A stretch of 64,000 bases of DNA from positions 1,488,001-1,552,000 of the forward strand of contig CDLV01000012.1 in assembly GCA_001244265.2 (NCBI GenBank), read 5' to 3'. Positions 13,687-59,450 of the stretch are shown here, piece by piece. Made by a program: the position numbers and the translations under genes. Source of the DNA: Microbotryum violaceum. Lineage: Eukaryota. Position 1 is the first letter of the stretch. Each line of letters opens with the position of its first letter. The notes under the pieces are model-generated. The model ran no database searches and had not been told where the DNA came from. It saw only the letters and a list, made by a program, of their open reading frames with translations.

Positions 13687-16122
13687 ATGGGTCCCGCCGT
13701 CGCGCGCACCTGCACCCTCCCCTCCCATACGCCTCGATCCTCATCGTGCCCGCGCCAGCAGCACTTTCGCTATCATCCGGGTCCTTCTGTTCGTCGTCGT
13801 CGCGCTCGTCGTCGCGTTCGTCGTCGCACTCACCATCGCAGTCGAACGCGCGCCAAGATCGCGGCAAGGCTCAGGCCGACGATGAGATCCCACGCTCGCC
13901 GTCGTCGCCGAGCATGGCGCGCTGTCCGACGACAATAAGCGGCGCCCACTCCTCCCACGGTGACCGTGACGAGCGTGACCACCTTAATCACCTGCCGATG
14001 ATACCTGCGACCGAGAGCAATGCGGCGCGCGAAAGTGTGGTCGAAGCTCTCATTTCGCCTGCGCTGGACCGCGAAGACGACCAACGCTTCCTCGAAGACG
14101 AGATCGTCCCACGTATCGTGATGTGCAACACCTCCGACCTGTTGTACTCGGTTGGTGGCACCGAGCAAGCCCGGTTTAAGGCACGCGTGCAAGAAGTTCA
14201 GAAGCGCCCCAAGCGAGTCCTGAGCAGGTTGAGGGACGATTTCCAAGCGCGACTGCCAACGATCTGCGAGCCAAACAAAGGCAGATTGGGTATGGCCATT
14301 TGCAAAATATGTAAGCATCCTCCAACCAGGGCTATCCAGATTATGCTTGGCAAACGACGATGTTGAATGCTGCGCTCGCTATGCGATTTTCGAACTAGGC
14401 GACTTCCGGTGAAGGACAAGAAAAGAGTTTGGCGATTGCACAAGCGCAGGAACACCCTCGGTTGACCCAAGAAGGTGCACGCCACAAAAAGTCTAAACGC
14501 TCTCAAGCTCACCATTTCCTGACGTGCTGTGAGTAGATGGCCGTGAAGAAGAAAGGGCCTGCCGCACGTGGTATGCTTGTCCCAATTCGTTTCGGCGTGC
14601 CTCCGCAGGGGGGCCATGCCAAGCGAACCGCGTGCGTCTCGTCTCCCCTCGTCGAGCTCGTTCTCGACTTGGTGCAGCATGCACTCAGTCAACCAACCCG
14701 CGTGTATGCGCCGGGCCTGGCCATCACCGATACCGAGGCTTACCTTGTCGTGCTCGACCATGAGGCGTGTCGGATCGCGACCATCGCGGATTGCTGGGGC
14801 GAGCGCTTTGGCGAGTTGGGGGTCGTCCTTTCCATTCTGTTCGGCCTGGATGTCTACTCGGCAGGGTTCAACCCGCTCTTCCGCTTACGCATGCCATTCT
14901 CAAATCGGCATCACCCCAGCGTCATTTTTGGCTTCTTGCCTTCGTCCGCCTGAGTGTGAAGGGGGAGCTCCTCTCGTTGGCCGCACCGTCGAGTTCATCG
15001 ACGAGGAACCCATCGAGCTCGTCCACCCCACATTCACGGACGGCGGGTCCATCTTCAGCCGCAGCACGGTCGTTTTGCAGCTGACCCGACCAAGCTTGAT
15101 CGCGCCGGCGGGCTCGGCATCTTCGCCTTCAAACTCCACACCGTCCTTTGTGCTCAAGATTCAATACAATACGCTCAACTATGTTGGTCACGAGGCGAAC
15201 GTGCTGCAAAAGATTGAGGAGCGTTGCGCATCCATCGCGTCGCAGGAGGAGGCGTCACTGATCTTCAACCACATCGCTCTCCTCGAAAAGTCGAAGTCGT
15301 TCGGCCTCCATTACTCGCAAATACAGGACAAAGACTTGCCAGTGTTTCGAGACGGGCAAGATGCTTATCAGCGAGTGCGACGACGCAAGCTGGACCTCCT
15401 CATTCTGCGCAACCCCACTCCTCTACCTACCCGGGTCCACGGACACCGACATTGTCGCCACCCGCTGAGCGACGCCTTCGATGTCTTGGACCGGCTCTTT
15501 ACGTTGCTGCCAGTTCTTTACGATCTCGGTATCCATCATCGCGACTTGTTGCTCGGCAACATCCTCCACCACCGAGGACACCTTGTTCTGGTCGACTGGG
15601 ACTCGGGCATCGTTGCGCCGCCGGGTGTACGGGTTCGCAACGTTGCCGAGGATTGTGGGTCCGTCAGAGTTACCCTCGACACGGCACCTTCGGACGTGCT
15701 CCTCTGGCTCCTCATGGGCCGAGAAAGGACTCTGGCGTTTCGCAGTCTTCAGGACGACCTCGAATCCGCGGTGTACTGGTTCGTGCAAGTCGTGGGCTCA
15801 TTTGCCGAATTTGAGCCCGCCAAGTTGGGAAGCATGGAAGCCGCTCTATCTAGCGTCGACCTGCGCGCTACCGGGCTGGAAGCAGCTGTTCAATGCACGC
15901 CTGGATCTGTGGGGCAGCGTCCTTGATCGTAGTCCACGACGCCGATATCTTCTGGAAGCTCTGCACAAGCTCAGTCCGCGGGAATGCCGATTGGTCAACA
16001 TGCTCACACTCAAACTGCCCGACTTCCCCCAGAGTCCGGACGGCATTGTGAGGACCAAAGCAATGATGGCGATGATGCAGACCGAGATGAGAGAAATCCT
16101 TGGATATCAGTCTCGCTCGTAG
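13687..16122 (+). pseudogene. Fungal-type protein kinase (FunK1/Pkinase_fungal), frameshifted; 5' boundary uncertain
   Basis: Homologous blocks are split over frames. 'SQPTRVYAPGLAI...LVVLDHEACRIATI...AGFNPLFR' is in 14537..14953; 'FVLKIQY...HEANVL...GIHHRDLLLGNIL...VLVDWD...DDLESAVYW' is in 14568..15926; the C-terminal 'WEAWKPL...LFNARLDLWG' is in 15481..16122. The breaks near 14885 and 15800 lack splice signals. Confidence 0.7.
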
Positions 16123-16558
16123 ATATTTGTTCATTGGTTCTTCATAATTTCTTCCTCTTTTGTTCTATTTGTGAAATAAATCGCAATTGTTGAGAGACCT
16201 TGCGGCCATCAAAAAGCTTCGGTGCCTTGCCTGAAGACACTGTCATTTTTTAACATCTACTTCGAGTTTCCTCGAGCTTCCTCGAGTCCCCTCGCGGCTT
16301 CTCTCCTCCCAGACACGAGCGCGTTCGAGGTTTGGCTTGTGCCCGTCTACTGCTGCGCCTGGCAACCCATTCATCTTCTCGATCGATTGAATTTCAGTCC
16401 CTAGGGGCGTAGGAGAGCTCCGTCGAACAAGCTCAACGCACTCTCCTTCCGGACCGAGCTCACTTCGGAGTCCGCAGCGGGGACGGCGCCGGCCCGGGGT
16501 GCTGCGAGTCGAGCACCGGATCGTCCAGGAAATCAGAGGAGAGCCCGGTTCATAGTCA

Positions 16559-18758
16559 ATGGCGTACCCGCCAGGAAGTTTCAGTTCGCCACTGGATGCG
16601 TTCGACTATCAACGTCGTAAGTCATGCTGGTTGGCGGCCGTCGCACACGCCGAGCTGTTGCCCAAGCTGACGATGGGGTTCCTCTACGTAGTCGCGAGTT
16701 CTGAACGAGGACTCGAATATGGAGGCGCAACATCATCTTCCTCCTCATCCTACCTTCCGAGAGCTCTACGAATACCCATCGTCCGATACCTCCTCGTGGC
16801 CTTGCTCGCACTGGTCGGATTGCACTGGCTCGCGCTGTTCATGTCCCCGAGCTACGCCGCCAGCGCCTCCCTCGAAGCCATCGCATTCAAAAGTGGTCTA
16901 GGATCAGATGGCTCCCCTTCATCATGGCATGACTCTTCGACTACAAATCTAGATGACTTGGCAAGTGTCGGCGGTACCGGACTCGCGCCGTTTGAGTCGC
17001 TTGACCCCGAGCTTAATGCGATCAATGCGACCAACAAAGCTCGCGCGGCGTTCGTTATCCTCGCTCGCAACTCGGATCTATGGAAGATTGTAGGCAGCAT
17101 CCGACAGACTGAAGGTGGGTTCGACGCTCTTTCCTTTTCGAGAGCAATAAAGCCATCCTTCGTTCCTGGCACTAGGCTTGCTGACAGTCGACCATCACTC
17201 TCCCTTCGAGCAGATCGGTTCAACAAAAACTTCCACTATCCCTACGTTTTCCTCAACAATGAGCCCTTCACAGACGAATTCAAGAAATTCACTTCGCTCC
17301 TCGCAAGTGGGACATGTAGCTATGGTCAGGTTCCGAGCGATCAGTGGGCGAATGAGCCGAGTTGGATTGATCAGACGAAAGCGGCCAAGGCGCGTCAGGC
17401 GATGGTTGAGAAGAAGATTCTCTACGGTGGCAGTCAATCATATCGACGGATGTGCAGGTAAGCCATCTTTTCATTTTACTGCACGCCAATTGTCTTGTCC
17501 TCACCTCTCGGTCATCGGTCATTGTCCTGTCGCAGGTATCAAAGTGGGTTCTTCTGGCGGCATCCCCTGTTGGACCAGTACGATTATTATTGGAGGATCG
17601 AGCCGGGCGTCAAGTTCTTGTCAGTCAAGTCTTCAAATCGGATCACGGATATCGCGCCTTGGACATGTGTCTCACGCTTGGGATACGTATCACTTTCGCA
17701 GCTGCGATTTGGCGTACGATCCGTTCGTCTTCATGCGCGACAGCGGCAAGAAGTACGGGTGGGCGATCTCCATCTACGAGTATGCGGAGACAGTACCTTC
17801 GCTTTGGTCAGAAACCCAAGGCAAGCCGCTATCCTGTTCATTGCAAAGAGTTTGGGGCCAGCTGACTCTTCCTATGGGTGGTGTATGGGCAAACATAGAT
17901 TTTATCCACAAAAACCAACACCTGATCGCTCCGAACAACCTCATCAACTGGATCTCCGACGATTTGGGCAAGACGTACAACCTGTGTCATTTCTGGGTAC
18001 GCTGTGGCCGTGCGAGACACTTGTACACAATACTAATGACAGTCAAGACCTCTTTGTGCCCTTTTACAGTCCAACTTCGGTCCGTTTTCACTTCGTGCCA
18101 GCCCACAGCTCCGGGCGAGACGAGAGACTGACCCCTTTTCCCTTGACATCGATCATAGAAGTTGGCGACCTGAACTTCTTCCGAGGCGAGGCCTATCGAG
18201 CCTACTTCGATCATCTGGATCGCTCTGGAGGGTTCTATTACGAGCGGTGAGTGTTGCCTGAATTCAGGAGGTTGGTGGGATCTCACCTAATCGATCATGT
18301 TGCGTGCACAGATGGGGCGACGCACCTGTGCATTCGATCGCCGCGGCGCTGTTCCTGAACCAAACCGAAGTGCACTGGTTCAAAGATATCGGCGTGAGTG
18401 CAAGATGGCGATCGGAATTTGTCAGCGGTTTCTGGTTCCTAAGAAGCCATTCGCTGCATAGTATCGTCACGAACCCTTCCAACATTGCCCTGCCGACCCG
18501 GCGGAGCGCGATCGATGCTCTTGCAATCCGTGAGTTGGCGGTCCTCCCAGAACAAAAGAACGCGAGCTTCCGACTGACGACGACTTGGTTCGCGTCCCGA
18601 TCCAGTGCCAATACATTTGGTCCGTCGTTTGCGCCGCGGCTTATATGCGGCGTCGGGAGAACGCTCTGGCTGATACCCTCGTTGTCAATCTATTCTTTCC
18701 AGAAACGCATTGGTACTCTTGCACTCAGAGAGGGAAAGACAAAGGGTTCTGGACCTGA
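16559..18758 (+). CDS. Alpha-1,2-mannosyltransferase, glycosyltransferase family 15 (KRE2/MNT1/KTR family)
   Basis: Type II TM anchor; 'AAFVILARNSDL', 'DRFNKNFHYPYVFLNNEPFTDEFK', 'YGGSQSYRRMCR|YQSGFFWRHP...YYWRIEP', 'YNLCHFW|SNFE|VGDLNFFR', 'GGFYYER|WGDAPVHSIA'. Last exon 'THWYSCTQR...FWT*'. Confidence 0.93.
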
Positions 18759-19004
18759 CTTGTTCACTCATGCTATTTTATCGTCTCCTCGCATTCATTT
18801 CTCTTCTTCCGCATCGTCGTTATCACTTGTACTCTGTTCAGGCTTGCATCCTGGCTTATGATATTTTCAAATGTATTCTGGCTCGAAAATAAGAACCCAC
18901 GGTCTTCCTCAGATGACGTGTACAAAGGTCTGTATGCTTCTAATAATGCGGTCGAAGAAAGCAGGATTGGGGCTTGAGATGAGATCTCCTAATCAAGAAG
19001 TCAA

Positions 19005-21182
19005 CTATGCGCTCCCTCTCAGGCTCAGGCTCGTCGTCGACGAAATCCATACCAACTGAGCAATCATAATCATCGAGATACCGACGAACCAGTACAACAA
19101 GTTCTCGATGTGCACTCGGCTGCGCTTGTCTAAGGTTTTGACGACCCCATGCTTGGCCCATGCCGGTTGCGCGATCGCGTAGGACTGTTTGCTCCAGGGT
19201 ACCTCCGCACGGTCGTCTTTGAGGATCTGCTCGGTCGTAATCCTTGCACCAGCCAAACAGATCGGAACACCCGTGCCTGGATGCGCCGAGGCTCCAACGA
19301 AGTATGCTCGGTCGACAGAGGGATGGCGCGTCGCAGGACGGAAGCAAAGTACGTTGAAGAAGCTGTGCGACAGACCGAGGATAGAGCCGCGGTGCAGATT
19401 AAATTTGTCGCGCCACGTGACGGGGGTGTTGACGATCTCTGACTTGATGTAGGAACCAAAATCGGGGACGTTGATGCGTTTGGCAATCGTGGAAATGATC
19501 AAAGTGCGCGCCGACTCGACGATCTTGTCCCAGTCGGCAGCAGCAGGCAAGGAGTCGCTGATGTGGCCGACCGGGACGAGAATGATGACCGAGTCGCGGT
19601 CCGAAGGTGCAGCAGAGGGATCGCTTCGACTCGGGACGTTGACGTAGAAAGAAGGGTCACGAGGAATTCGGTGGTCGCGAAAGATGGAATCGAAAGACTC
19701 CTTATATTCGTCGGCGAGAAAGATGTTGTGGCTGCCCAGCTCCGGTACCTTTCGGTCCATCGACCAGTAGAATGAGATTGACGAGCAGCTCACTGGCTTT
19801 TTGGCCAGTCGTTTGGCGTACGAGGTTGGCTCAAAGAGGTTGTTGAGTGCCCAAATGAGATCGGAGTTGATGACGACCACGTCCGCCTTGAGCTCCTCGC
19901 CGGACTCCAGCACGACCCCGGTTGCCTTTTTGGCATTGTGCGGATCGAGCAACACTCTGGAGACGCGAGTCGACAGCCGGAAGACTGCTCCGTTCCGCTC
20001 AGCGATCTTTTGGACTGCTTCGATCACTTTGTGGAAGCCTCCTATCGGATACCAAATGCCCTCTGTCATCTCCGTGTATTGTAACAGCGAGTACGTGCCG
20101 AGCGAATCGTAAGGTGACATGCCCTGGTCAAGCCATCATAAAAGGGCTTCAGCTTGGTGCCAGGGTTTGCATCCTTAGGACCACGCGAGCAACTCACCAT
20201 GTACATGGAGGCGAACGTGAATACACGTCGCAGGCGATCCGTCTTGAAGTAGCGGGAAGCTCTGGAGTACTAGACGAGGAGCCCCATACAGAGCCCAGCA
20301 TCATGGTCAGCACCAGTCGCGGTGACCGCATCGTCACATCAATCCTTCGCTCAACAACTCACTATCGACTCGAAGGGATGGAGAATGAGAAGGTTCTTGA
20401 GGAAAGAAGGACGCAGCATCGATAAGAGTGACGTAAAGTTCTGCAGGGATCGTACGGGCACGAGATCTCAGCATCGGCAACCGGAGCTGAGCGGCCCTGC
20501 CGTGTGGGGGAGATCCGACGATCGAAATGAATGCTGTCGCAACACCCACTTTATGCAGTACGTGCTCAACCGACAGTTCGTAGTGTCGGTGGCCCTCCAA
20601 CATGAATTGGAGAAACCTGTAGTCTCCAGGGAAGGTGACACCATTGTAATCAGCCAAGTGATTTCACTTACGCGTGGTGTCTTCCACGAGCATCTCGCGC
20701 GAGGCTGTCTCCGCATGGATGGGAGCAAGCTCACTGGACGATGCTTGAACGTCAAGTCCGGCTAGGCAACAGATAGATACTTACCCTTGGAACCCCGTTT
20801 CACCTTCGAATCGTTCGATCTCTGTCTTCATCTGCACCAAGTCGGAGCTGAGCATGAAGCTCTCGCCATCGCCAAAGTGGACCTTGTAGTTGGGGTTGCA
20901 TTTGACGAGCTCGATCCCTTCTCGCTCCATCGTCGTGCCGAGGTCGACGAACGTCTCCTCAAACATCTTGGGGAGCAGCAACAGTGATGGGCCCTGGTCG
21001 AACCGATGACCATCGTCGGTGTACATAAGCGAGCATCGTCCCCCCGTGAACGAGTTCTGCTCGAGGCAGGTCACAGCGTAGCCAGCCGAAGCAAGACGAG
21101 CCGCGGTCGCCACACCTCCGACGCCGGCGCCAATCACGAGGGCCGTCCGTTGGTGTGCGGAACTTTCTGCTGCGGCAACCAT
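19005..21182 (-). CDS. CAR1: Phytoene desaturase (CrtI/Al-1/CarB type)
   Basis: FAD-binding 'ALVIGAGVGGVATAARLA', 'GGRCS...HRFDQGPSLLL', 'RRVFTFASMYM|GMSPYD', 'EGIWYPIGGF', 'SCSSISFYW', 'DPSFYVNVPSR', 'GSILGLSH...YFVGASAHPGTGVPICLAG'. The exons join in frame. Confidence 0.96.
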
Positions 21183-21500
21183 CGTGGCTCGTCAAATCAC
21201 TCGGTGGGTGGGGAGCTTTTGGGCAGTAGACGGCAGAAAGATAGAGGCCGAGCCTGAGGACCCGAGCGGGAAAGCTGTATCGCAGCGCTCGATCGCTCAC
21301 CGCATCAACACCGAGCTGGTCTCGACGAGTCGCTGCCGATCATGCCGCGCGTCACCGCGTCACCGCTAAGCGCTAAACGCCGCTAAACTCCCGTTCACGG
21401 AGGTGAGTCGCTATCGGAGCAGCTGCAGTGGCCGCCGCGGCGGAGTGTTGCGCAGCATGATTGGTGTTCGTATATGTATCATAGTTGCAAATTTTAGGTA

Positions 21501-21546
21501 AATATTAAGTTTTAGGCTATGTGAATATTAAGTTTTAGGCTATGTG
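21501..21546. repeat. Perfect 23-bp tandem duplication (AATATTAAGTTTTAGGCTATGTG)x2
   Basis: Read directly; AT-rich; lies in the opsin 3' region and CAR1 upstream region. Confidence 0.9.
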
Positions 21547-21652
21547 CAAGCAATCAGAACTAATCATGTCCAGGAGATGATCACACGCCAGATTCAGAAA
21601 AACAAGGTTGTTGGAATGAGGATGAGAATTTGATTTCCAGCTGGTCTCGACT

Positions 21653-23288
21653 TCAAACGGCGGCCTGGGTGGGCTTGAACCCAGGATGAGCAGTGGACCC
21701 ATTGTGAGCGGCGGCGTTCGGAGACGACCCCTCGACTCGGGTAGCGGTGGAGCTGCGATGCTCGTTGGCGTGCTCGTCATGGTTCAAGTGCTGCGTGTTG
21801 TAGTATCGCTCCTCGGCGGTCGCAGCTTGCGAGTCTAGAGAATGGTGAATTTGCGGGAGAAACGCGTCGTTTAGGGGCAAGACTTGGCTCGCGGTGACCC
21901 GGGCCCAACTCACATTTGCCAGAGACAAAGCCAAGACGGTTGTAGTCGCACGTGGACATCGCGATGCAGTGGTAGAAGCAAAATCCGGGCTGTGGTGGTG
22001 TGAAGGAAGAGCGTTTCAGTGGCTATGACGTTGTAACTTTGGTCGACAAATAGCGCAAACTCACCTTGGCCAACACATCGAGGACACCGTAGAAGACCAT
22101 CTCCGAAGTAGGTGTGATGACGTTGCCACCATCGGCAAGCCCCCATGCAACGGGGTACAAAATCCAGAGTGCGGACAAAATCGAAGCGGACAGTGCGTAC
22201 CTGTGGAAGACAAAGCGCCACAGTTCAGACCTCGAGAGAAAGCGCCGGAAACAATCGGGAGGCACAGTGAAGCTCACATTTTGGGAAAGCCACCGCCGAG
22301 GTTGTTGGCCGACTTGCGAGCGGGGAGCAAAAGCATCCACCAGATGTAAAACTCAGCCACGCAGCCGAACTGTTTCATTCAGGAGAAAAACGGAGGTTTG
22401 ATCAGCGCCGCACTCGTCTCAAAAGAGACTCCAGGTCAATTCCTCGAGACAACTCACAGTCTGTTTGGTCGTAGAGCATGAAGGCAAGGAGTGGGATAAA
22501 GCGGCTTAGTATGCGCCGGTAGTCGTCACTAAGCTTTTACGCAGCCCATACCGTAACTTACGAAAAGACCCCACTTGTACTTGCTCGACACCAAGGCGCC
22601 AAGGAGACCGGTGACAATCATGACCTCATCCAAGAAAATGGTGGTGAAGATTTCCGTGAGGGGAAGACCGGTGGCGAGGAGGAGCTCGAGGAGGAGGAGG
22701 GGAGTCGTAATAGCCCAGTCGACGTAGCGAGCGTACCAAATCGAGCGAGTGGGGCGATCCACGCCGAGGGCGACCCAATTGGCTCCAAGCGACCCGCTTC
22801 GGATAAACTCGACGGCAATGGGGGTCGATCCGAGGTCAGATGCCATGCAGAAGTAGGCGATCGATGCCGTGAAGCAGATCGCGGCAGCTGTGAAAGGGAG
22901 CGGATGATGGCCCGCAGTGCGTCAGTGGAATTGCTCCTGACCGTGCGACGGATATCCGGACTGGACTACTATCCAGCTTAATTTGTACCACACACTCAAC
23001 TTACCCAAGTGGTGGAAGGCACGTTGACCGAGAGGACGCGTGGAGCCGAGGGCCAAAAGTCCAAGACCACTCGCGGCCATGATTGAGAAGATGGCCCAAA
23101 GGAAGTCCGACGCTGAGAGAACATAGACGCAAGGTTTTCGTGAGCTACTGCTATCCCTATCGCTGCGACTGATAGCGACTGTCTCAATAGCAACATCTTG
23201 CTGTGTAGTCTGCAGAAAGCTACTGACCATGGGTCGTGATATCGATGTTGCTGCTCAAAGGATTGAGGGCAAGAGCATTGTTTCCCAT
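21653..23288 (-). CDS. Microbial (type 1) fungal rhodopsin, CarO-like, retinal-binding Lys present; about 8 exons
   Basis: Reconstructed protein: MGNNALALNP..HASDFLWAIFSIM..RAFHHLAAAICFTASIAYFCMASDLG..RSIWYARYVDWAITTPLLLLELLLATG..FLDEVMIVTGLLGAL..KYKWGLF(T)FGC..LWILYPVAWGLADGGNVITPTSEMVFYGVLDVLAKPGF..QAAV*. Bacteriorhodopsin equivalents R82, D85, W86, T89, W182, Y185, P186, D212 and K216 are all recognisable. Confidence 0.93.
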
Positions 23289-23449
23289 CTTGACGAAGCT
23301 TCGGAGGCTTGAAGTGCGAAGGTGTCGAGTAATCTGCTGTGGGTATTGAGAGGTGCTAGCCTGAGTATTGAAGGGCGTTGATATTTTGATGCGTGGGAAC
23401 AGAGGGACGAAAGAGAGAAGAAAAGAGGGCTTGATGAAAACCAATGGAA

Positions 23450-23877
23450 GAGCCCGCCGATCTCCGCTGATCGGGGAGATGAAGGCAACGAAGGCTTCGG
23501 TGACCGGAGATGACGTCGTGAACGAGGGCCGAATCCTCCTGCGAGGCCGAAGCGCACGCCTCGGGCAGGGTTTACCGTTGACGAATCCGGTGACGGATAA
23601 GAAGTGCTAAATTTAGGGCGAACTTACAGCATTCAGTCTCGATCCGTCTCGATCTCCAGATTTGCAGCGTGCAGGGAGGAGCCCGCCGATCTCCGGCTTC
23701 GGTGACCGGAGATGACGTCGTGAACGAGGGCCGAATCCTCCTGCGAGGCCGAAGCGCACGCCTCGGGCAGGGTTTACCGTTGACGAATCCGGTGACGGAT
23801 AAGAAGTGCTAAATTTAGGGCGAACTTACAGCATTCAGTCTCGATCCGTCTCGATCTCCAGATTTGCAGAGTGCAGG
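23450..23877. repeat. Tandem duplication in the opsin upstream region (about 229-bp unit plus a second copy lacking 27 bp)
   Basis: 23493-23667 is identical to 23695-23869 (175 bp). The 16-mer GAGCCCGCCGATCTCC precedes both copies (23450, 23679). Copy 2 lacks the segment equivalent to 23466-23492. Confidence 0.95.
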
Positions 23878-24469
23878 CTGATTGCACGCCCAGCGTCGAC
23901 CGTGAAATTCTTGGGAGCTGCGTCGACCAGATCGGACCGTTCCGATCATCGAGGGCCAAGGCATAAAAATTGACGTCACATTTACATGGCGACCGATTGC
24001 CGTCGAAGCAACCCGAGGATCTGTAGTGCCTGCACATCTTGATCGAACTCGCTGATGTAATTCTAATTTTGTGTGTCAAATTGTTCATCACAAGTTCTGT
24101 GCAGCCGCGGCGTAGACCCGACGAACAATGGTAAGGAGAATCGGGTCGGCTTGCCGCGCTTTAGCCTCTGGCGGTCCCTCGCTCGCGTAGTAACCCTAAG
24201 AGTATCGAGGGCCATCTAACACCAATGTCTGAGAAATCCCCGGTAGGTCATAATATTTTTAATTTTTTGCCGGATTCCGCGGAAAGTGTTACCGGAATCC
24301 GGATTCGCGAAGTAGATTATTGAGCTTCTTCAGGTTGGCACGGCGAGAGGAAGAGTCTCCCAAGGGCTATGGGTTTTTTGCGCTCCCCCATCTTCTCTAA
24401 GTGGTCCTCTCTACTGTTCTCACATTCAATCGCCTTATCGCAGTTGCAAATGCGACTAGCGACGCACCC

Positions 24470-26839
24470 TCAATTCCAAGCGTTCAGGGATTTCCAAGCA
24501 GTGTTGACGCGGTCGTATACCGATACTCTTGCTCGATCGTGCACGGCACCTCTTTTCAATGACTCCTCTACGGCTTGGCCAATGCGCATGTAAACGGCAC
24601 ACGCGGCTCGGATCCCGCCCCTGGCCTCGAATGGAATCAGGTCAATCGTCTTGCGCGTTTCTTCGGCCATGTCCTTGGCAAGTGCGAGTAAACGCAGACG
24701 TGCGTCGGTTGCATCCTCCATGCCACCTTTGCGTTCGAGAGATGCAAGTGGCAGTCGAGGCAGGTACACCCGACCAATCTTGGCATCGGCTGGAACATCC
24801 CGGGCAATGTTGACGAGCTGTAGAGCTTGGCCCATTTTTCGGGCAGCAACCAGTATGCGCTGCCGGTCGCTGCTCGTGCCCGATTGGCCAAACTCTTCCC
24901 AAATGAGTTGCATGCACAAGTCGGCGACCGATGAGGCGACGTCGGAAGCGTATCGAAGCAGAGCGTCTTCATCCGCGATTAGTGGCGCGGAGTTGTCTTT
25001 TGAAAATGTAGAATCGGTTTTGAATCCGTGAAGAAGCTCGTTAAGGGGGCCCCGAGTAATAGGGAGATCGAGCAGCAGCCTGAACGTCGCCCGTTGCGCT
25101 GGACCTAGAATTCCAAACAGATTTTTCGCTTCTGGCCATTCCGGTGACAAGTCAATAGAGCTGGCACGATCGACGTGGTTTTGAGGAGCAGAGCTTGGGT
25201 ATTTGGCATCGAGGTAGGCCGAGATCAAGGAGATGTTTCTCGTTGCAACCTCGTTGGAGCTAGCGTCGTCCACGAGATCATCGGCAACGCGACACCACGC
25301 GTATCTACAGGTGTCAATCACACCAAATCAGGCGAGCCCGGGAGGCCACTGACGAAATACTAGGTGCGAATACTTACAGTGACAGTAAATTGAGTTGTAG
25401 TCGTCCTTCGAACACAAAGTTCGCTGTGTAGAAGCTCTTCGATTTCTCTCGAAGTAGACCCACCGCAGCGCTGAGGTCGGCGAGCCGAGCGTGAGGCAAA
25501 CTTTGGGGACGTGTCACCACTGTTCGCAACAGTCCGAGTATAGGTCGTTGCTTCCATGTCCTTTTAAATTCATGATTTGAAGGCGCGTCGTAGATGGCCA
25601 GGCAATAATCACTTCGAACGTCCGTCAATCGTCAGCTTTGTAACTAGCTTTCGATCGGCTGAGTCGGCAGGCTGTTGCTCACCAAGCTGCGAGACCAAAA
25701 ACGACCATGACGTTGGTAAGCAAGAAGAAGACGGCTTCCCTGTAAAGTTCAGAAAGACGCGGTCAGCATCATTAGAAGCTATGCGCGTTTGTCAGCCATA
25801 ACTCACTCAACCTCCAGGCCATAGACGGCGACACCGAGCTTTGTTCCTCGCTCAATCACCCAGGTCCCTCTCTGGAGAGCAAGTGCGTCGCAGACCCACA
25901 GATAGACTGTCGGGAGTAAAATCGGTATCAAGGTAGCATAGAGCGGTAGAGCGATGATGTGGGAAGATGCGACGCCCCTACACATGCGGGAAGAAGCCGG
26001 AAAACAAAAATGAGCAGAGTTGTTTTCCCTCCCAGTTCAATCAGATTGTGGCAGCCATGAGCGCACCATAACAATGCAAGGAAGGGGGATACCCATGCCA
26101 CGATGAGGGCCATATACGTCCACTCTCCTCCGCGACGGAGTTGATCGACAGCGACGGCCGTCACCCCAAGAAACGCCATCATTCCGATTGATGCAATTCG
26201 GGTAACCCGATCCGCGGCCTTGGTGGATCTCGGCAGGAGGAGAACGTGTAGAACGGGTTTAGAGCACAAAGCGTAGATGCATGAGGTGATGTAGGTTTGA
26301 ATGAAGAAGAAGAAAACCTCCTCGATCGGTATGGACGCGAGGGTGGGTCCAAGGCATGACGAGGGCGGGTACGACCAGATCTGTGACAACTCGAAACCAA
26401 AACCGTCTCAGTGCGACTCCTTCATAGCCAAGTGCCCAGGGGAAATGGATACGATTACCCTGTTACGGATGAGATACGAATCCCAAGGAATGGTCGCCTG
26501 TATAGGTGGGAACTAGCTAGTGAGCTTCTCGAAACAGCCAGGCTGAGCACCTCTTACAGTTATGGCAATCTGTTCGAGTCGACGACAAGAGTCAGCTGCA
26601 CCTCCTGCATGAGAATCAAGCGTATAGTGGTCCCCTCACAAGAATCAACGCGGTCGTCTTGTTCACCTCGCGTCTCGTCCGTAAACGCCGAAGACTCCTC
26701 CAGAGCAGCAGCGCCGGCGGAATCGTCCACCACAGGTGACTATGTTCGTTCGGCGGGGAGCTTCGCCCGAGTCAGTCCCCATGAACAGCTAGTGCACAAG
26801 GCCTTGAATGACTGACACTTTCGTATAGTCTGCGCCCAT
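24470..26839 (-). CDS. CAR2: Bifunctional lycopene cyclase/phytoene synthase (CrtYB/Al-2/CarRA type)
   Basis: Cyclase part: MGADYTKV|HLWWTIPP..|IAIT|ATIPWDSYLIRNR|IWSYP..IPIEEVFFFFIQTY..PTVYLWVCDALALQRGTWVIERGTKLG..EEAVFFLLTN. Synthase part: 'KSKSFYTA', 'YAWCRVADDLVDD', 'MGQALQLVNIARDV..DAKIGRVYLP'. Confidence 0.96.
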
Positions 26840-27630
26840 TCGAACTTATGCGAGACTCTGCGAGCTACGACTCCGAGTCGCGAGGCCTTCGTACGGGGAG
26901 CAATTCGAAAGCCTTAGTGCGCGCGGGGCACCACTTGTTATGCCCAGGACAATCGAGTCGCGTTCCTAGCCTAGCCTAGACGGTATTCAGCACGTATCCC
27001 CCCCCAGCACACTCACGGTTGCCAACGCAGGTGGCGTACCTCCAAGTAGGGCGGGTACATGTTATTCCACTGGGAGTTGCTCTCCCAGCATCTTGTCTTA
27101 CTACGTACGTACTCAGCTGGAATACTGCTCATATCCCGAGGTGCTCCCATTCGTAGGTACCAGGCCGGGCAAGTTGCTTTGCTTTCCGAAATCTCGGCTC
27201 GATCCGGCCGCCCCAGATCTCGATCTCGGCCTCCGCGCTAGTCTTGTCCGAGGCGGTTCCCAGCTCCAAGCCCAATCTCGGTGACGACTTGATCACGGGC
27301 AGACGAAGAACTCGATGACGTCGTCGCCGCGGTGGCGCGTAAGCATCGATGTGTGAGTTGCACCTGCTTTCTAGGATCCTTTTTAGTGTACGTTTTCCGA
27401 CAAAGGCAGACGCACAACCTCGGTCACTTGATACTTCCTCATTGGTCGTTGACGCGTTGACTGCCGCCACCGCTCCCGCTATTGCGCCGCGCTTTCGCCT
27501 CGGAGACCGCTCCCGTGCCTAACTTTCGTTGCACCCTGCCTCGATTTGCTTCATTGCCGTTCATAAAACTGCAGGCGACACTTCTCGTAGGTATCCCGTC
27601 GGTAGAGCAGCTCGTGTGCTCCTGAGCGAC
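26840..27630. promoter_or_regulatory. Bidirectional promoter region shared by CAR2 and the carotenoid oxygenase; contains a GATC-repeat cluster
   Basis: About 790 bp separate the divergent ATGs (26839 on -, 27631 on +). 'CTCGATCCG...AGATCTCGATCTC' lies at 27198-27227. Confidence 0.55.
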
Positions 27631-29961
27631 ATGGCGAAGCACCCCTACGCCTCGGGCAACTACCGCCCAATGCACTGCGAGCGAGGTCTGACGACATGCG
27701 AATGGCAAGGTCACATCCCCGACGAGCTTGCGGGAGGGTACGTCCCCGCTCACCCGGTTTGACGTGGGGTCATTTGTGCTGATGTGACTTGCAATTCCCT
27801 GTGGATCGCTGAAAAAACAGGATGTATATCAGAAACGGCAGTAACCCATCTATCGCCAGCGGGTCGAGCGTCAAGACCGAGGACTTTGAGCGAGCCTACC
27901 ACTGGGTCGGTCATGAGTTTCGCGGCGGTGGCAATTGATCCCAGAAGACGAGGGCTGACTTTTCAACTACGCGTGTTGGTGGATGCTTGAATGTTCAGTT
28001 TGACGGCGATGGGATGCTGCAAGGCGTGTACTTCCCGCGGCGCCCGGTCGACGCTGCGAAGGACCCCAGTGGTTCGGCCGTCGCTGCGCCCGAGTTCGTC
28101 AATCGCTACGTGCTCACCGATGTTCTACTCGCAACACCTGCCGATGCGACGGCACCAATCCTTCCTTCAATCACGACATTATTGGGCCCCTTGAAGCAAC
28201 TACCTGCGTTGATTGCCTCCGTATCACGTGCGGTGATCTTGGCCGCACTTTCGTTTGCGGCGGCCTCTGCCGAGGCCATCAGCCATGTGTCGGTCGCAAA
28301 TACGTCAATACTTTACCACGACGGCCGTGCTCTGGCTGGGTGTGAAAGTGGTCCTCTGGCCTGGGTTCGTCTCCCAGCCCTGGAAACAGTTGGATGGTGG
28401 GATCTCGATGGCGACGATGGCGAAATCGGTATGAGAGAGAAGCATGGCGCTCTCGGGTGGATGAAGGAATGGACGACCGCGCATGTGAGTATCAGCTTGT
28501 CGACCAAATCAATTTGCTCAAACTGACTCGATCACTGTGAAACGCCACCATATAGCCCAAACGTGATCCCGTCACCGGCGAGCTGATCCTGTTCCACTCA
28601 ACCATGCTGCCGCCTTACCTATCCTACTCGGTCATCCCATCAACCCAGAACGGCAAAGCACAAACCCCGCGGATACTGGGCGCTCCTGTGCCGATTTGTA
28701 CGTTGCGAGAAGGGCCATCAAAGGTCAGGAAGCGTCTTCTAATGCGGATGTTTACTTCTTCACGACTCGTTTAGCTGGGCCTCGGATGATGCATGACTGT
28801 GCGGCATCTCATACCCACACGATTCTGCTTGACATTCCCCTGTCGCTGGATCCGTTGAACCTGCTCCGCGGCGTGCCGGTCGTTGCATATTCGCCATCGA
28901 TTCCCGCGCGATTTGGAGTGCTCCCGCGTCACAGCCCAGAAAATGTTCGGTGGTACTCGGCACCGAGCTGTATCATATTTCACACCGCCTTCGCCTACAA
29001 CCAGGTCGATCCGGTGACTTTGCAGGAGTCGTTAAACCTCGTCTGCTGTCGCCTCAACTCGTCGCGACTTGTATATGCTGCAGGCAACATTCCGACCCCG
29101 TCATCACAACTTCAGCCGGGCTTGGAGGAGACATGTCGACTGTACTATTACTCGTTCGTGCTCTCGGATGTGGTCTTGCCTCAAGACCTTGCGCCGTCGC
29201 ACGCCTTTGCATTGTCGGTCTTGCCTTTCGAGTTTGCCACGGTGCCTCTCAAGCATTCCATGAGCTCTTCGCGCTACGTGTACGGGTGTTCAATGCGGGT
29301 GGGTTCGTTCAGTGCTGCCCTGGGAGGTGCAGCAAAAATCGACTGCATCGTCAAGATGGACGTCCAGGCTCTCATTTCCGAAGGTACCGACCGAAGGTTG
29401 CACGACGAACAAGCGGTTGACGAGCGCACGATGACTCAAATCCTCGAGGATCAAAGGAGCGGGGTCTCTTCCCACATCAAGGTGTTTGTGATGCCACCGG
29501 GTCACTTTGCGCAAGAGAGCTCTTTCGTCTCGCGGGCGTCGCCTCGCGGCGAAGACGATGGGTTCTTGCTCTTCTACGTCTTTGACGAATCTCAGCTCGA
29601 TCCACTCACGGGCGAACCGATGGAACATGCCAAATCCGAGTTGTGGATCATTGACGCGTGGACGATGGTTGATGTCATAGCCAAAGTGCAGCTGCCACAA
29701 AGAGGTGAGTAAGCAGTTTCGGTGTCGAGTACAAAGGCGGAGGCATTGCTGACAAATTTGCGGGGAAAATTTTAAGTGCCTTACGGCCTTCACGGAAGCT
29801 GGTTCACAGAGCGAGAGATAGCACGCCAACGCCAAGCGCCAACCCTTCGACAACGACCTCCTGCTACGCAGAACTCGAAATTGGGGTCGGTACGAGAGAC
29901 TGGCCATCGCCTCGGCTGGTGGGGAAGTCAATGCCAACGCCTCATTGAAATTTTAGCGTGA
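27631..29961 (+). CDS. Carotenoid cleavage oxygenase (RPE65/CCO family; CarX/Cco1-like, putative retinal-forming)
   Basis: 'HPYASGNYRP...GHIPDELAGG|MYIRNG...YHW|FDGDGML', 'NRYVLTD', 'SVANTSILYHDGRALAGCESGP'. The four Fe-ligand His contexts are present: 'TTAH|PK', 'MMHD', 'IFHTA', 'PYGLHGSW'. Also 'EDDGFLLFYVFDE'. Confidence 0.93.
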
Positions 29962-57256: not shown

Positions 57257-57539
57257 GCCCCTCTTCCAGCTTGTATATTACAGAGCTTGCTCGTCGAGCA
57301 TTGTTTGAGTGTATCTCTATTTGCTACATGCCACCTTTTGGCTTGTACAAGCAACTTGCGCGTGTCTGTAGCCTCACTCAAAAACCTGAAATGACCGAAC
57401 GAGCGCTTCAAACTTTCAGACTCCGAAGATTAGCTTTTACAAGTGGGAACCCTTTGATTTCACAGAAGGAGGAGATTCAAGTAGCGAAGATTTGGACACA
57501 AGATTTCCAGTGAAAGCACACAACATACGGTACAGCAAA

Positions 57540-59450
57540 GAAGCTATGCTTTGTTTCGCCAAAACGGCCTGCCCGTAGCTTGGTGCCCAAAATGTTGTCG
57601 CATAGCCGGTTCAACTTGGCTTCATACACTCGTGCAAGGTGATCCGGACGTTTGCATGCCTTGTCGTTCGGGCCCAGTGTATCCTTGATTTCCAGCCATT
57701 TGGGGTTGCACGACACCGTGATGAACAGCAAAGGCTTTCCACATCTGATCTGATCGCACGCCATCGCATCTTGGTAACGTTGCATGATCATGCGCGGGCC
57801 ATTCTTGAATGTCGAGCCCAAAATCACCGAACGTCGAATTTGACCCGGGGTCAAGCCTTTACATCGCCAGTGTGGTCTTGAGCCGTGGTGAGGCGTAGTT
57901 CTTTGATGAAACCGAATACAGAAGAGTCGATCGATCTCAGCTTGGGAGTATCCGTCCATTACGAAGTCGCGGAAGAAACACTGGGTACAATGCGGGATCC
58001 AGAAGTAGCCGTCGCGTTCGTTCAAGTAGTTCATGGTACATTGGGCACGGGAGACTCGGATTGATCCACCTCGACCCGGGCTCCTTGACCTTTGTCCTAG
58101 ATGTTCAAACATTCCATGTCAGTCTGTGCTAGCGTCTCAACAGACTGAAACATGTGAGAAAGAGCCGAGGGCTCTTACGTACACTATCACATTCTCTTCG
58201 TCGTCTTCATACTCACTGTCGCGGTCTTCGTCCTCCTATTCGTGTTCGTCATCCAGACCAAGACCGGCAAGTACCTCGCGCACCACGCGGAATTGGACAT
58301 TTTTGTCGATCTGCTCTTGTTTTCTGGCGATCGGCGACCCAGCTTGATTGGGCCCGCAAGGAGGAATCTTAGGGACGAAGCCATTTTCTCCTGCGGTGAA
58401 TAGTAGTAGGTAACAGAGAGGCATCGCGGACGGATGGAGCGAGCTGAGGACACCTTCGTACTTGGGCCGACCGTCTGGATGTCGATCACCGCGAGCCTAA
58501 GAGCAACAGGCCTGGCGGTCCACGATCTTCCGTGATGGTGTCAGAATCGCAGACAAACATTGCTACTTCTGTGCTTGACGTAGGAAGGTTGTGGGTGCGT
58601 TGGTCTAGGCGTGGTGGTAAGCCGAGGCGCAGGACCCACTCTTTGACCGTACCCCTGCGCGAGCTTTGGCTGATGCAAACTCCATCACAAAGTGATTGCT
58701 GCCCCCAGGTAATCTAGGATCATACAGCATACTACCTGGGTCTCACTTTCAGCGTGTTTCGCGTCTCGTTCCGCACCGTTCCGGTACGCAATATGGACTT
58801 GAGCTTGGTCACAGTAGATCTTTGTATGCGAATGTCTGCGCCGTCGATTCCAAGTCGAGTGTCGGTGGCCTCAGCGGGCTCGATGAGCCATGTTTGGGCA
58901 AAGGCTGGGCGTTGATGGACGGCAGGGATCAGGGCACTGAGTCGATGATAAAAGCGACCCAACACGCGAAACACCGGGGGTCGTATCGAGTCTGATCAAC
59001 GTGAGCAGCGAGCGAACTGAAGGACAGCGCGTTGTTGTATGACCGAACGTTCTCACGAAATGCTTTAGCTTCTGTGTGCATGGGAATACTCCACAGTTCA
59101 GTATGTGGGGTCCACTGCAGACGAATGCTTTTGAACGGAGCAATTAACTGCTATACGAGCCTTGGGCTGGGGATGGGGAAGCGGCCGCACCAAGTTGCCC
59201 TGCGAGCAGCACGAGCTCAAGTGTTTAGTCAACTTCATCCTTTCGCACTCCCAATGTCGAGCCTTGCAGCGGGTGTACACGGCCGTCTGAGGGCCAGGGT
59301 AGTCACGGATTGAAAATATGGGCTTGAGTGGTTTGAACGTGAATCGAGCCTTGCGCGCTCGCCTTTGTGCACGAGGGAGGTGGTGGTGGGACGAACTCAG
59401 CGTCACGTCGGGCATTGCGCTGATCATGCGGTTGGTCTTGCACGGCTGCA
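57540..59450 (-). mobile_element. Decayed, truncated Helitron (N-terminal part of the RepHel gene)
   Basis: Helitron motifs in the expected order across shifted frames: 'RCKARHWECE...SCCSQGNLV', 'AFRENVRSYNNALSFSSL', 'FRVLGRFYHRLSALIP...PAFAQ', 'DQRTHNLPT..EVA', 'HPSAMPLCYLLLFTAGENGF', 'VILGSTFKNGPRMIMQRYQDAMA..GKPLLFITVSCNPKWLEI..KRPDHLARVYEAKL'. Boundaries are approximate. Confidence 0.9.

What the first reader, a model, noticed from the sequence alone, without database searches (positions are those of the whole stretch)
19005..29961. Self-contained carotenoid-retinal-rhodopsin cluster in a basidiomycete
Seen: four consecutive, apparently intact genes with nothing between them: phytoene desaturase (-), rhodopsin (-), cyclase/phytoene synthase (-) and a carotenoid cleavage oxygenase (+). 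Known: CrtYB and CrtI make beta-carotene from GGPP, CarX/Cco1-type oxygenases cleave it to retinal, and type 1 opsins bind retinal. The same four-gene set forms the Fusarium carX-carRA-carB-carO cluster, with carX divergent from carRA as here. Inference: this is a complete module for making a chromophore and its light-driven pump or sensor. The opsin lies between synthase and desaturase, an order I do not recall from described red-yeast CAR clusters. It may be an ancient conserved cluster or an independent assembly.
Basis: partly seen in the sequence, partly recalled or inferred. Interest (0 to 1): 0.85.

Follow-up and report, generated by a model that had tools for sequence, protein, structure and literature searches.

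The report
Anther-smut retinal and proton-pump cluster
The anther-smut fungus keeps, side by side, the three enzymes predicted to make retinal and the light-driven proton pump predicted to use it, a four-gene set known from Fusarium and other ascomycetes, which suggests the set is older than the split between the two big fungal phyla.

Summary
Confirmed. The window is Microbotryum lychnidis-dioicae, and the genes are MVLG_05585 (crtI), 05584 (opsin), 05583 (crtYB) and 05582 (oxygenase): intact and consecutive. Spliced contigs support the opsin, oxygenase and crtYB models, including a last oxygenase exon with the fourth iron-binding His that the public model lacks. The opsin is a seven-helix CarO-like DTE rhodopsin matching the proven pump UmOps1. 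The oxygenase's relatives hold the carX position in ascomycete car clusters and it is far from stilbene oxygenases; retinal formation is inferred, not shown. Locus tags show the opsin linked in six other Microbotryomycetes genomes, and unlinked in 11 of 11 red yeasts. Published RNA-seq shows opsin, oxygenase and crtYB low in closed buds and high in open flowers; crtI is not in that table. Trees show no recent transfer from ascomycetes, but the oxygenase tree conflicts with the species tree. Verdict: a new member of the known Fusarium-type car cluster, in another phylum. I found no basidiomycete report in ten literature searches. The gene order itself is not special.

The parts
19005..21182 (-). 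crtI/CAR1/carB phytoene desaturase, 577 aa, 5 exons (MVLG_05585)
   Evidence: model; identical to P0121; TIGR02734 above cut-off; no splice joint shown
21653..23288 (-). CarO-like type 1 opsin, 327 aa, 8 exons (MVLG_05584); R110 D113 T117 E124 D143 E144 D220 E230 D238 K242
   Evidence: seven helices at pLDDT above 90; all 7 introns in spliced contigs spanning 21466-23392
22458..22460 (-). 3-nt micro-exon of the opsin
   Evidence: predicted; three letters between joints 22369 and 22562 in X1 and X3 (table 5c)
23493..23877 (.). 183-nt direct repeat (23493-23675 and 23695-23877, one mismatch) just upstream of the opsin transcript
   Evidence: DNA contig of the unit at depth 472 against 228 and 221 for the flanks
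24470..26839 (-). crtYB/CAR2/carRA lycopene cyclase-phytoene synthase fusion, 594 aa, 9 exons (MVLG_05583)
   Evidence: both cyclase repeats and both aspartate-rich motifs present; 4 of 8 introns as joints
26840..27630 (.). 791-nt head-to-head intergenic region, probable bidirectional promoter
   Evidence: same divergent pair in 49 of 52 related loci with 2 kb or more upstream; promoter function inferred
27631..29961 (+). CarX/Cco1-type carotenoid cleavage oxygenase, 644 aa, 6 exons (MVLG_05582, public model 585 aa); His 226, 280, 343, 589
   Evidence: 5 of 5 introns in spliced contigs
29777..29961 (+). last oxygenase exon carrying the fourth iron-binding His, missing from the public protein model
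   Evidence: joint 29702-29775 (cut +2) in X1 and X3; motif present in 88 of 108 hits that reach this region

Best explanation
A working retinal-and-rhodopsin module homologous to the ascomycete car cluster. CrtYB makes phytoene from GGPP supplied from elsewhere, CrtI desaturates it, the CrtYB cyclase forms beta-carotene, the oxygenase cuts it at 15,15' to retinal, and retinal binds Lys242 of the opsin to give a green-light outward proton pump like UmOps1 and CarO. The oxygenase also drains beta-carotene and so limits pigment. Shown here: intact genes, catalytic residues, splicing of three genes, co-variation of three transcripts, linkage in related genomes. Inferred: the cleavage product, pumping, light control. 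Origin: one ancient cluster shared with Pezizomycotina, most simply from the Dikarya ancestor, kept whole in Microbotryum, Phenoliferia and two unclassified Microbotryomycetes, with the opsin moved away in red yeasts. My odds: chemistry about 0.8; one shared origin about 0.8; vertical descent given that, about 0.65.
For: Opsin: D113/T117/E124/D238/K242 intact; E124, E144, D220 are the UmOps1 positions 129, 149, 225 less five (UmOps1 shown to pump in PMC6467936, passages); Glu at the BR-G116 site is the CarO-like mark. Oxygenase: four His; best solved relative plant CCD1 (2e-36) against CAO-1 (3.7e-9) and lignostilbene dioxygenase (3.9e-8); relatives sit head-to-head with crtYB in 49 of 52 loci, and 23 of 30 long loci hold all four genes. 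Linkage by tags: NB124-2 006769/006771/006772, JL221 003675/003676, P. psychrophenolica 008523/008524/008526, Phenoliferia Uapishka_3 KAK4705484/5, M. saponariae 10899/10898, M. silenes-dioicae 09972/09973. Opsin tree splits basidiomycetes from ascomycetes 100/99; Microbotryomycetes oxygenases are one clade (99/99) outside the ascomycete clade. Expression r = 0.90-0.97 over 14 samples.
Against: No assay of the oxygenase or opsin; CarX and Cco1 sequences themselves were not available for the tree. crtI is absent from the FDR 1e-5 table. One of 15 background genes correlates about as well (r 0.89-0.95), and the opsin rises at bud stage 10 while the oxygenase does not. Carotenogenic strains are reported to hold neurosporene and lycopene, not beta-carotene (PMC6680902, passage). 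The oxygenase tree rejects Pucciniomycotina as one clade (p-AU 1e-5 and 2e-5) and is borderline for Basidiomycota (0.069, 0.043). Opsin and oxygenase lie on different contigs in Mixia and Melampsora americana. Neighbour tags 006770 and 008525 are assumed, not shown, to be crtYB.
Confidence: 0.65

Rival explanations
1. Origin rival: the cluster, or its three enzyme genes, crossed between an early basidiomycete and the Pezizomycotina ancestor long ago, in either direction.
For: A 100/99 oxygenase clade joins Microbotryomycetes, Ustilaginomycotina, Clavulina, Calocera and ascomycetes and leaves out Mixia, Melampsora and Kwoniella; AU tests. In the crtI search all named hits after the 22 Microbotryomycetes were ascomycetes, among the 120 shown of 2793. 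A Microbotryomycetes+ascomycete opsin clade is not rejected (p-AU 0.08).
Against: Neither group nests in the other; the best opsin tree follows the phyla; ancient paralogy with loss explains the same tree; I named the tested groups after seeing a first tree; sampling was 18 to 28 rows.
Confidence: 0.25
2. Origin rival: independent assembly in Microbotryomycetes from native genes, under selection for co-regulation.
For: Opsin unlinked in 11 of 11 Sporidiobolales and in Mixia and Melampsora; order differs in Phenoliferia; opsin position is labile among ascomycete-like loci.
Against: The head-to-head oxygenase/crtYB pair and co-directional downstream genes recur in both phyla; only 2 of 192 signed four-gene orders are this close to the Fusarium order (my arithmetic); the clustered opsin is the same CarO-like type in both phyla.
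Confidence: 0.15
3. Chemistry rival: the oxygenase cuts elsewhere (9,10 like plant CCD1, or acyclic carotenes), so the cluster mainly controls photoprotective pigment and volatile apocarotenoids.
For: Best solved relative is a 9,10-dioxygenase; neurosporene and lycopene are the reported pigments; loss of retinal gives no phenotype in Ustilago maydis (PMC7396576, passages).
Against: Its relatives hold the carX position; CarX and Cco1, from both phyla, make retinal (PMC5133782, passages); the neighbouring opsin keeps the Schiff-base Lys.
Confidence: 0.15
4. Function rival: the opsin is mainly a light sensor that times spore germination or mating, with pumping secondary.
For: Glu144 lies at the proposed transducer site of CarO-like proteins; CarO delays germination; there is a 70-residue low-confidence tail.
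Against: The proton donor position is acidic (E124), whereas the non-pumping UmOps3 has Ser there; no transducer gene lies in the cluster.
Confidence: 0.15

Closest known systems
Fusarium fujikuroi car cluster carX-carRA-carB-carO (FFUJ_11801-11804) and its Pezizomycotina counterparts
   Same: Same four gene families; oxygenase divergent from the synthase/cyclase; desaturase and CarO-like opsin co-directional with it; 8 of 11 ascomycetes examined cluster them (PMC5796164).
   Different: Here in a basidiomycete; opsin and desaturase swapped; proton donor Glu where 9 of 11 named ascomycete opsins have Asp; light induction not tested; crtI co-regulation not shown.
Rhodotorula/Sporidiobolales crtX-crtYB-crtI (CAR0-CAR2-CAR1) cluster
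   Same: Orthologous enzymes in one clade; head-to-head oxygenase/crtYB in L029, L056, L057.
   Different: The orthologous opsin lies on another contig in 11 of 11 species; none in 19.4 kb of L057; PMC5691792 section 14 names no opsin.
Ustilago maydis Car1/Car2/Cco1 and UmOps1
   Same: Basidiomycete retinal pathway with a CarO-like DTE pump; the UmOps1-type P0051 is 58% identical over 270 residues with matching key positions.
   Different: UmOps1 has Leu where this opsin has Glu144; the U. maydis genes are dispersed (recalled, not tested).
Proteorhodopsin-crt-blh clusters of bacteria and ChoanoViruses
   Same: Same logic: pump gene beside its chromophore pathway (PMC10016063, passages).
   Different: Blh-type rather than RPE65-family oxygenase; unrelated assembly.

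Membership tests
Fusarium-type car cluster | crtYB, crtI, oxygenase and opsin adjacent | tested here: met
Fusarium-type car cluster | oxygenase divergent from crtYB, others co-directional with crtYB | tested here: met
   49 of 52 loci share the pair
Fusarium-type car cluster | exact order carX-carRA-carB-carO | tested here: not met
   opsin and crtI swapped; order also varies among ascomycete-like loci (15 of 30 long loci have the Fusarium order), so I do not treat it as defining
Fusarium-type car cluster | co-regulation of all four genes | tested here: inconclusive
   three genes r 0.90-0.97; crtI absent from the table; 1 of 15 background genes similar
Fusarium-type car cluster | induction by light | not testable with these tools
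   no light/dark data found; GATCGA-type motif not clearly enriched
CarO-like rhodopsin | seven helices and Schiff-base Lys | tested here: met
CarO-like rhodopsin | acceptor, donor, release and counter-ion residues | tested here: met
   D113, E124, D220/E230, D238; BR position labels are recalled, anchored on UmOps1 numbers
CarO-like rhodopsin | Trp or Glu at BR-G116 | tested here: met
   E144
CarO-like rhodopsin | light-driven proton pumping | not testable with these tools
   needs electrophysiology
CarX/Cco1 retinal-forming oxygenase | RPE65 fold with four iron-binding His | tested here: met
CarX/Cco1 retinal-forming oxygenase | orthology to CarX and Cco1 | tested here: inconclusive
   clade with ascomycete proteins in the carX position and with Ustilaginomycotina proteins; CarX, Cco1 and CarT sequences themselves were not obtainable
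CarX/Cco1 retinal-forming oxygenase | 15,15' cleavage of beta-carotene | not testable with these tools
   needs an assay
Stilbene oxygenases (CAO-1, LsdA, NOV) | closest similarity to CAO-1/LsdA | tested here: not met
   E 3.7e-9 and 3.9e-8 against 2e-36 for CCD1; NCBIfam 61 bits, cut-offs 650 and 800

The most novel reading that the evidence does not exclude
The four-gene retinal-photosystem cluster predates the Ascomycota-Basidiomycota split (or crossed it once, whole) and has been held together ever since. In anther smut it is switched on by light when the flower opens, loading spores with a working proton pump for pollinator-borne dispersal. It is also the classical tightly linked colour locus of Ustilago violacea (linkage recalled from Garber's genetics, not read), so white, orange and yellow mutants would map to crtYB, crtI and the oxygenase and give ready-made tests of what fungal rhodopsins are for.
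Probability: 0.3. Interest if true: 0.65.

Novelty: new member of a known kind. Interest (0 to 1): 0.45.

Why it matters
The cluster type and its chemistry are known, so a specialist would not be astonished. Its presence in several Microbotryomycetes would date the linkage to the root of Dikarya or to a very old transfer, making it an unusually long-lived fungal gene cluster, and it recasts the red-yeast three-gene cluster as a reduced form. The role of fungal proton-pumping rhodopsins is an open question; here a tractable plant pathogen shows 25- to 48-fold swings of opsin and oxygenase across infection stages, which gives a direct test. Practical point: the public MVLG_05582 model lacks its catalytic last exon and was listed only as an abscisic-acid NCED candidate.

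Tried and rejected
No whole genome is held, so photoreceptor genes, GGPP synthase and other opsin copies could not be sought. No listed run is on record as RNA; X1 and X3 are read as RNA from their joints. Poor contig cover over crtI in X1 and X3, and depth differences between genes, are not used as evidence. A shared promoter element was not found: no 9-mer is common to the three upstream regions, and GATCGA (White Collar motif, recalled) occurs 5 times upstream of the opsin against about 2 expected, partly through the duplication. The metagenome scan gave no basidiomycete locus with all four genes; 3 of 80 were recognised as red-yeast-like among the 39 classified. The crtI tree lacked other basidiomycetes and an outgroup, so it cannot test origin; no crtYB tree was built. 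The careful 60-row opsin tree did not finish. The oxygenase fold was of the M. intermedium model, pLDDT 67.5, and added nothing; the Atlas search gave only the family. Recent transfer from ascomycetes, assembly artefact, pseudogene status and stilbene-oxygenase identity were considered and rejected. PMC5797489 (fungal opsin phylogeny) is not held. Five look-ups in earlier findings gave nothing relevant.
Full report
Observation. Exon models give 577, 327, 594 and 644 aa with GT..AG introns and no premature stop, and domain scans name them phytoene desaturase, bacteriorhodopsin-like protein, cyclase plus phytoene synthase, and RPE65-family oxygenase. Protein searches identify the organism: the crtI and opsin models are letter-identical to MVLG_05585 and MVLG_05584 of Microbotryum lychnidis-dioicae, and the oxygenase equals MVLG_05582 over its first 583 residues. 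The genome paper's table lists MVLG_05582-05585 as consecutive autosomal 'hypothetical proteins'. Flanking genes are unrelated (a mannosyltransferase, Sec61).

Splicing. Contigs of runs X1 and X3 (one study, RNA by the tool's guess) skip exactly the predicted introns: 7 of 7 in the opsin including a 3-nt micro-exon, 5 of 5 in the oxygenase, 4 of 8 in crtYB as joints; none of crtI's 4 is among the 15 joints shown, and 2 joints were not shown. The last oxygenase joint adds an exon with the fourth iron-binding His, which the public 585-aa model lacks. A 183-nt duplication upstream of the opsin is real, at about double depth in DNA run X10.

The opsin. It folds into seven helices at pLDDT above 90 and keeps R110, D113, T117, E124, D238 and K242. 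E124, E144 and D220 correspond to UmOps1 positions 129, 149 and 225; UmOps1 is a proven green-light pump, and Glu or Trp at that middle site marks CarO-like proteins (PMC6467936). The bacteriorhodopsin position labels are recalled. A pump is the likeliest function; this is inference.

The oxygenase. It has four His and is far closer to plant CCD1 than to CAO-1 or lignostilbene dioxygenases. A metagenome scan kept the best 80 of 178 relatives. In 49 of 52 loci with 2 kb upstream, crtYB lies head-to-head. Of 30 loci with 9.5 kb upstream, 23 hold all four genes: 15 in Fusarium order, 6 with the opsin beyond the oxygenase, 2 in the window's order. Those two are one organism (99.96% identical), with crtI seen only at the locus edge 5 kb from the opsin. 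The loci are partly redundant; 28 of the 30 were classified and all had ascomycete best hits. So this enzyme belongs to the family that holds the carX position. CarX and Cco1 make retinal (PMC5133782), but their sequences could not be put in my trees.

Synteny in basidiomycetes rests on locus tags and contig lengths, not on DNA. Opsin next to crtI: M. saponariae, M. silenes-dioicae, NB124-2 (oxygenase two tags before the opsin, as here), JL221, Phenoliferia Uapishka_3 (inside a fused gene model). P. psychrophenolica has oxygenase, crtI, one unseen gene, opsin. M. intermedium has crtI and oxygenase four tags apart, opsin not seen. In 11 of 11 Sporidiobolales with both kinds of hit, the orthologous opsin is on another contig; two of these contigs are short (10.6 and 13 kb), and only 120 of 219 opsin hits were shown. 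Mixia and Melampsora americana are unlinked too. Leucosporidium lacks both synthesis genes (PMC12093110).

History. The opsin tree separates the phyla (100/99) and places the linked opsins (94/88) as sister to the unlinked red-yeast ones; this alone cannot tell loss from gain of linkage, but the shared head-to-head core and the ascomycete arrangement favour loss. Microbotryomycetes oxygenases form one clade outside the ascomycetes. Against simple descent, that tree rejects Pucciniomycotina monophyly (p-AU 1e-5, 2e-5) and is borderline for Basidiomycota (0.069, 0.043) (unnamed rows dropped; groups named after a first tree). Ancient paralogy or ancient transfer remains open.

Expression. In PMC5919739 Table S2, opsin, oxygenase and crtYB are high in mated cells, 33-, 48- and 11-fold lower in stage-8 buds, and 25-, 25- and 5-fold higher again in open flowers; r = 0.90-0.97 over 14 samples. 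Against: crtI is not in that table; one of 15 background genes, taken from one of 206 parts of the file, tracks about as well; the opsin rises earlier than the oxygenase. Dark bud versus lit flower is my inference; spore maturation explains it equally. Carotenogenic strains resist photokilling and hold neurosporene and lycopene (PMC6680902), so beta-carotene flux is unproven.

Literature. Ten searches gave no report of the four-gene cluster in a basidiomycete; subscription journals are largely missing. The known survey covers ascomycetes only (PMC5796164). Seen as passages around search terms: PMC5103461, PMC5796164 (plus a supplement search), PMC8879039, PMC12279972, PMC12093110, PMC6467936, PMC5133782, PMC10016063, PMC7396576, PMC6680902, PMC11682019. 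PMC5691792: passages and section 14. PMC4469406: term search of the main text (no carotenoid or opsin mention) and of 24 supplements. PMC5919739: term searches, 8 supplements searched, one part read. Garber 1975, Estrada 2009 and Prado-Cabrero 2007 were not read. Figures, and supplements of the other papers, were not seen and could show such a cluster.

Verdict. Real, intact and at least three-quarters expressed; a new member of the known car cluster type in a second phylum. The order is a minor variant. Interest 0.45.

Noticed in passing
window 23493-23877: 183-nt near-perfect tandem duplication just upstream of the opsin transcript, real in DNA reads; it doubles two GATCGA-type sites; effect and strain spread unknown.
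   Followed up: partly
window 29705-29961: Public model MVLG_05582 stops before the exon with the fourth catalytic His; the M. intermedium model shows the same kind of faulty end.
   Followed up: yes
window 22854-22856 region, opsin residue 144: Glu at the BR-G116 site in most cluster-linked opsins (Microbotryum, NB124-2, P. psychrophenolica; not JL221) and all named ascomycete ones, but Ile/Leu in every complete red-yeast opsin aligned; confounded by kinship. Position given loosely; residue 144 lies in exon 3 (22887-22562).
   Followed up: partly
P0377 and P0062 (no locus held): An Ustilaginomycotina-type oxygenase and an Exobasidium-like opsin both list a 245,738-nt contig, a hint of linkage in another subphylum.
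   Followed up: no
L029, L056, L057: Red-yeast-like loci show oxygenase and crtYB divergent, although PMC5691792 calls them convergent.
   Followed up: partly
L023 7841-11818; L011 5428-12019: Reduced ascomycete-like clusters: opsin head-to-head with the oxygenase and no synthesis genes within 10 kb (L023); no crtI within 10 kb (L011).
   Followed up: no
P0030, P0045, P0102: Melampsora, Mixia and one Sporobolomyces roseus opsin have Thr at the proton-donor site (DTT), possibly non-pumping sensors.
   Followed up: no
window 57480-58118 (-): Helitron helicase-like fragment.
   Followed up: no
window 14547-15926 (+): Kinase-like ORF with only a weak APH hit, next to a glycolipid mannosyltransferase gene at about 16556-18861.
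   Followed up: no
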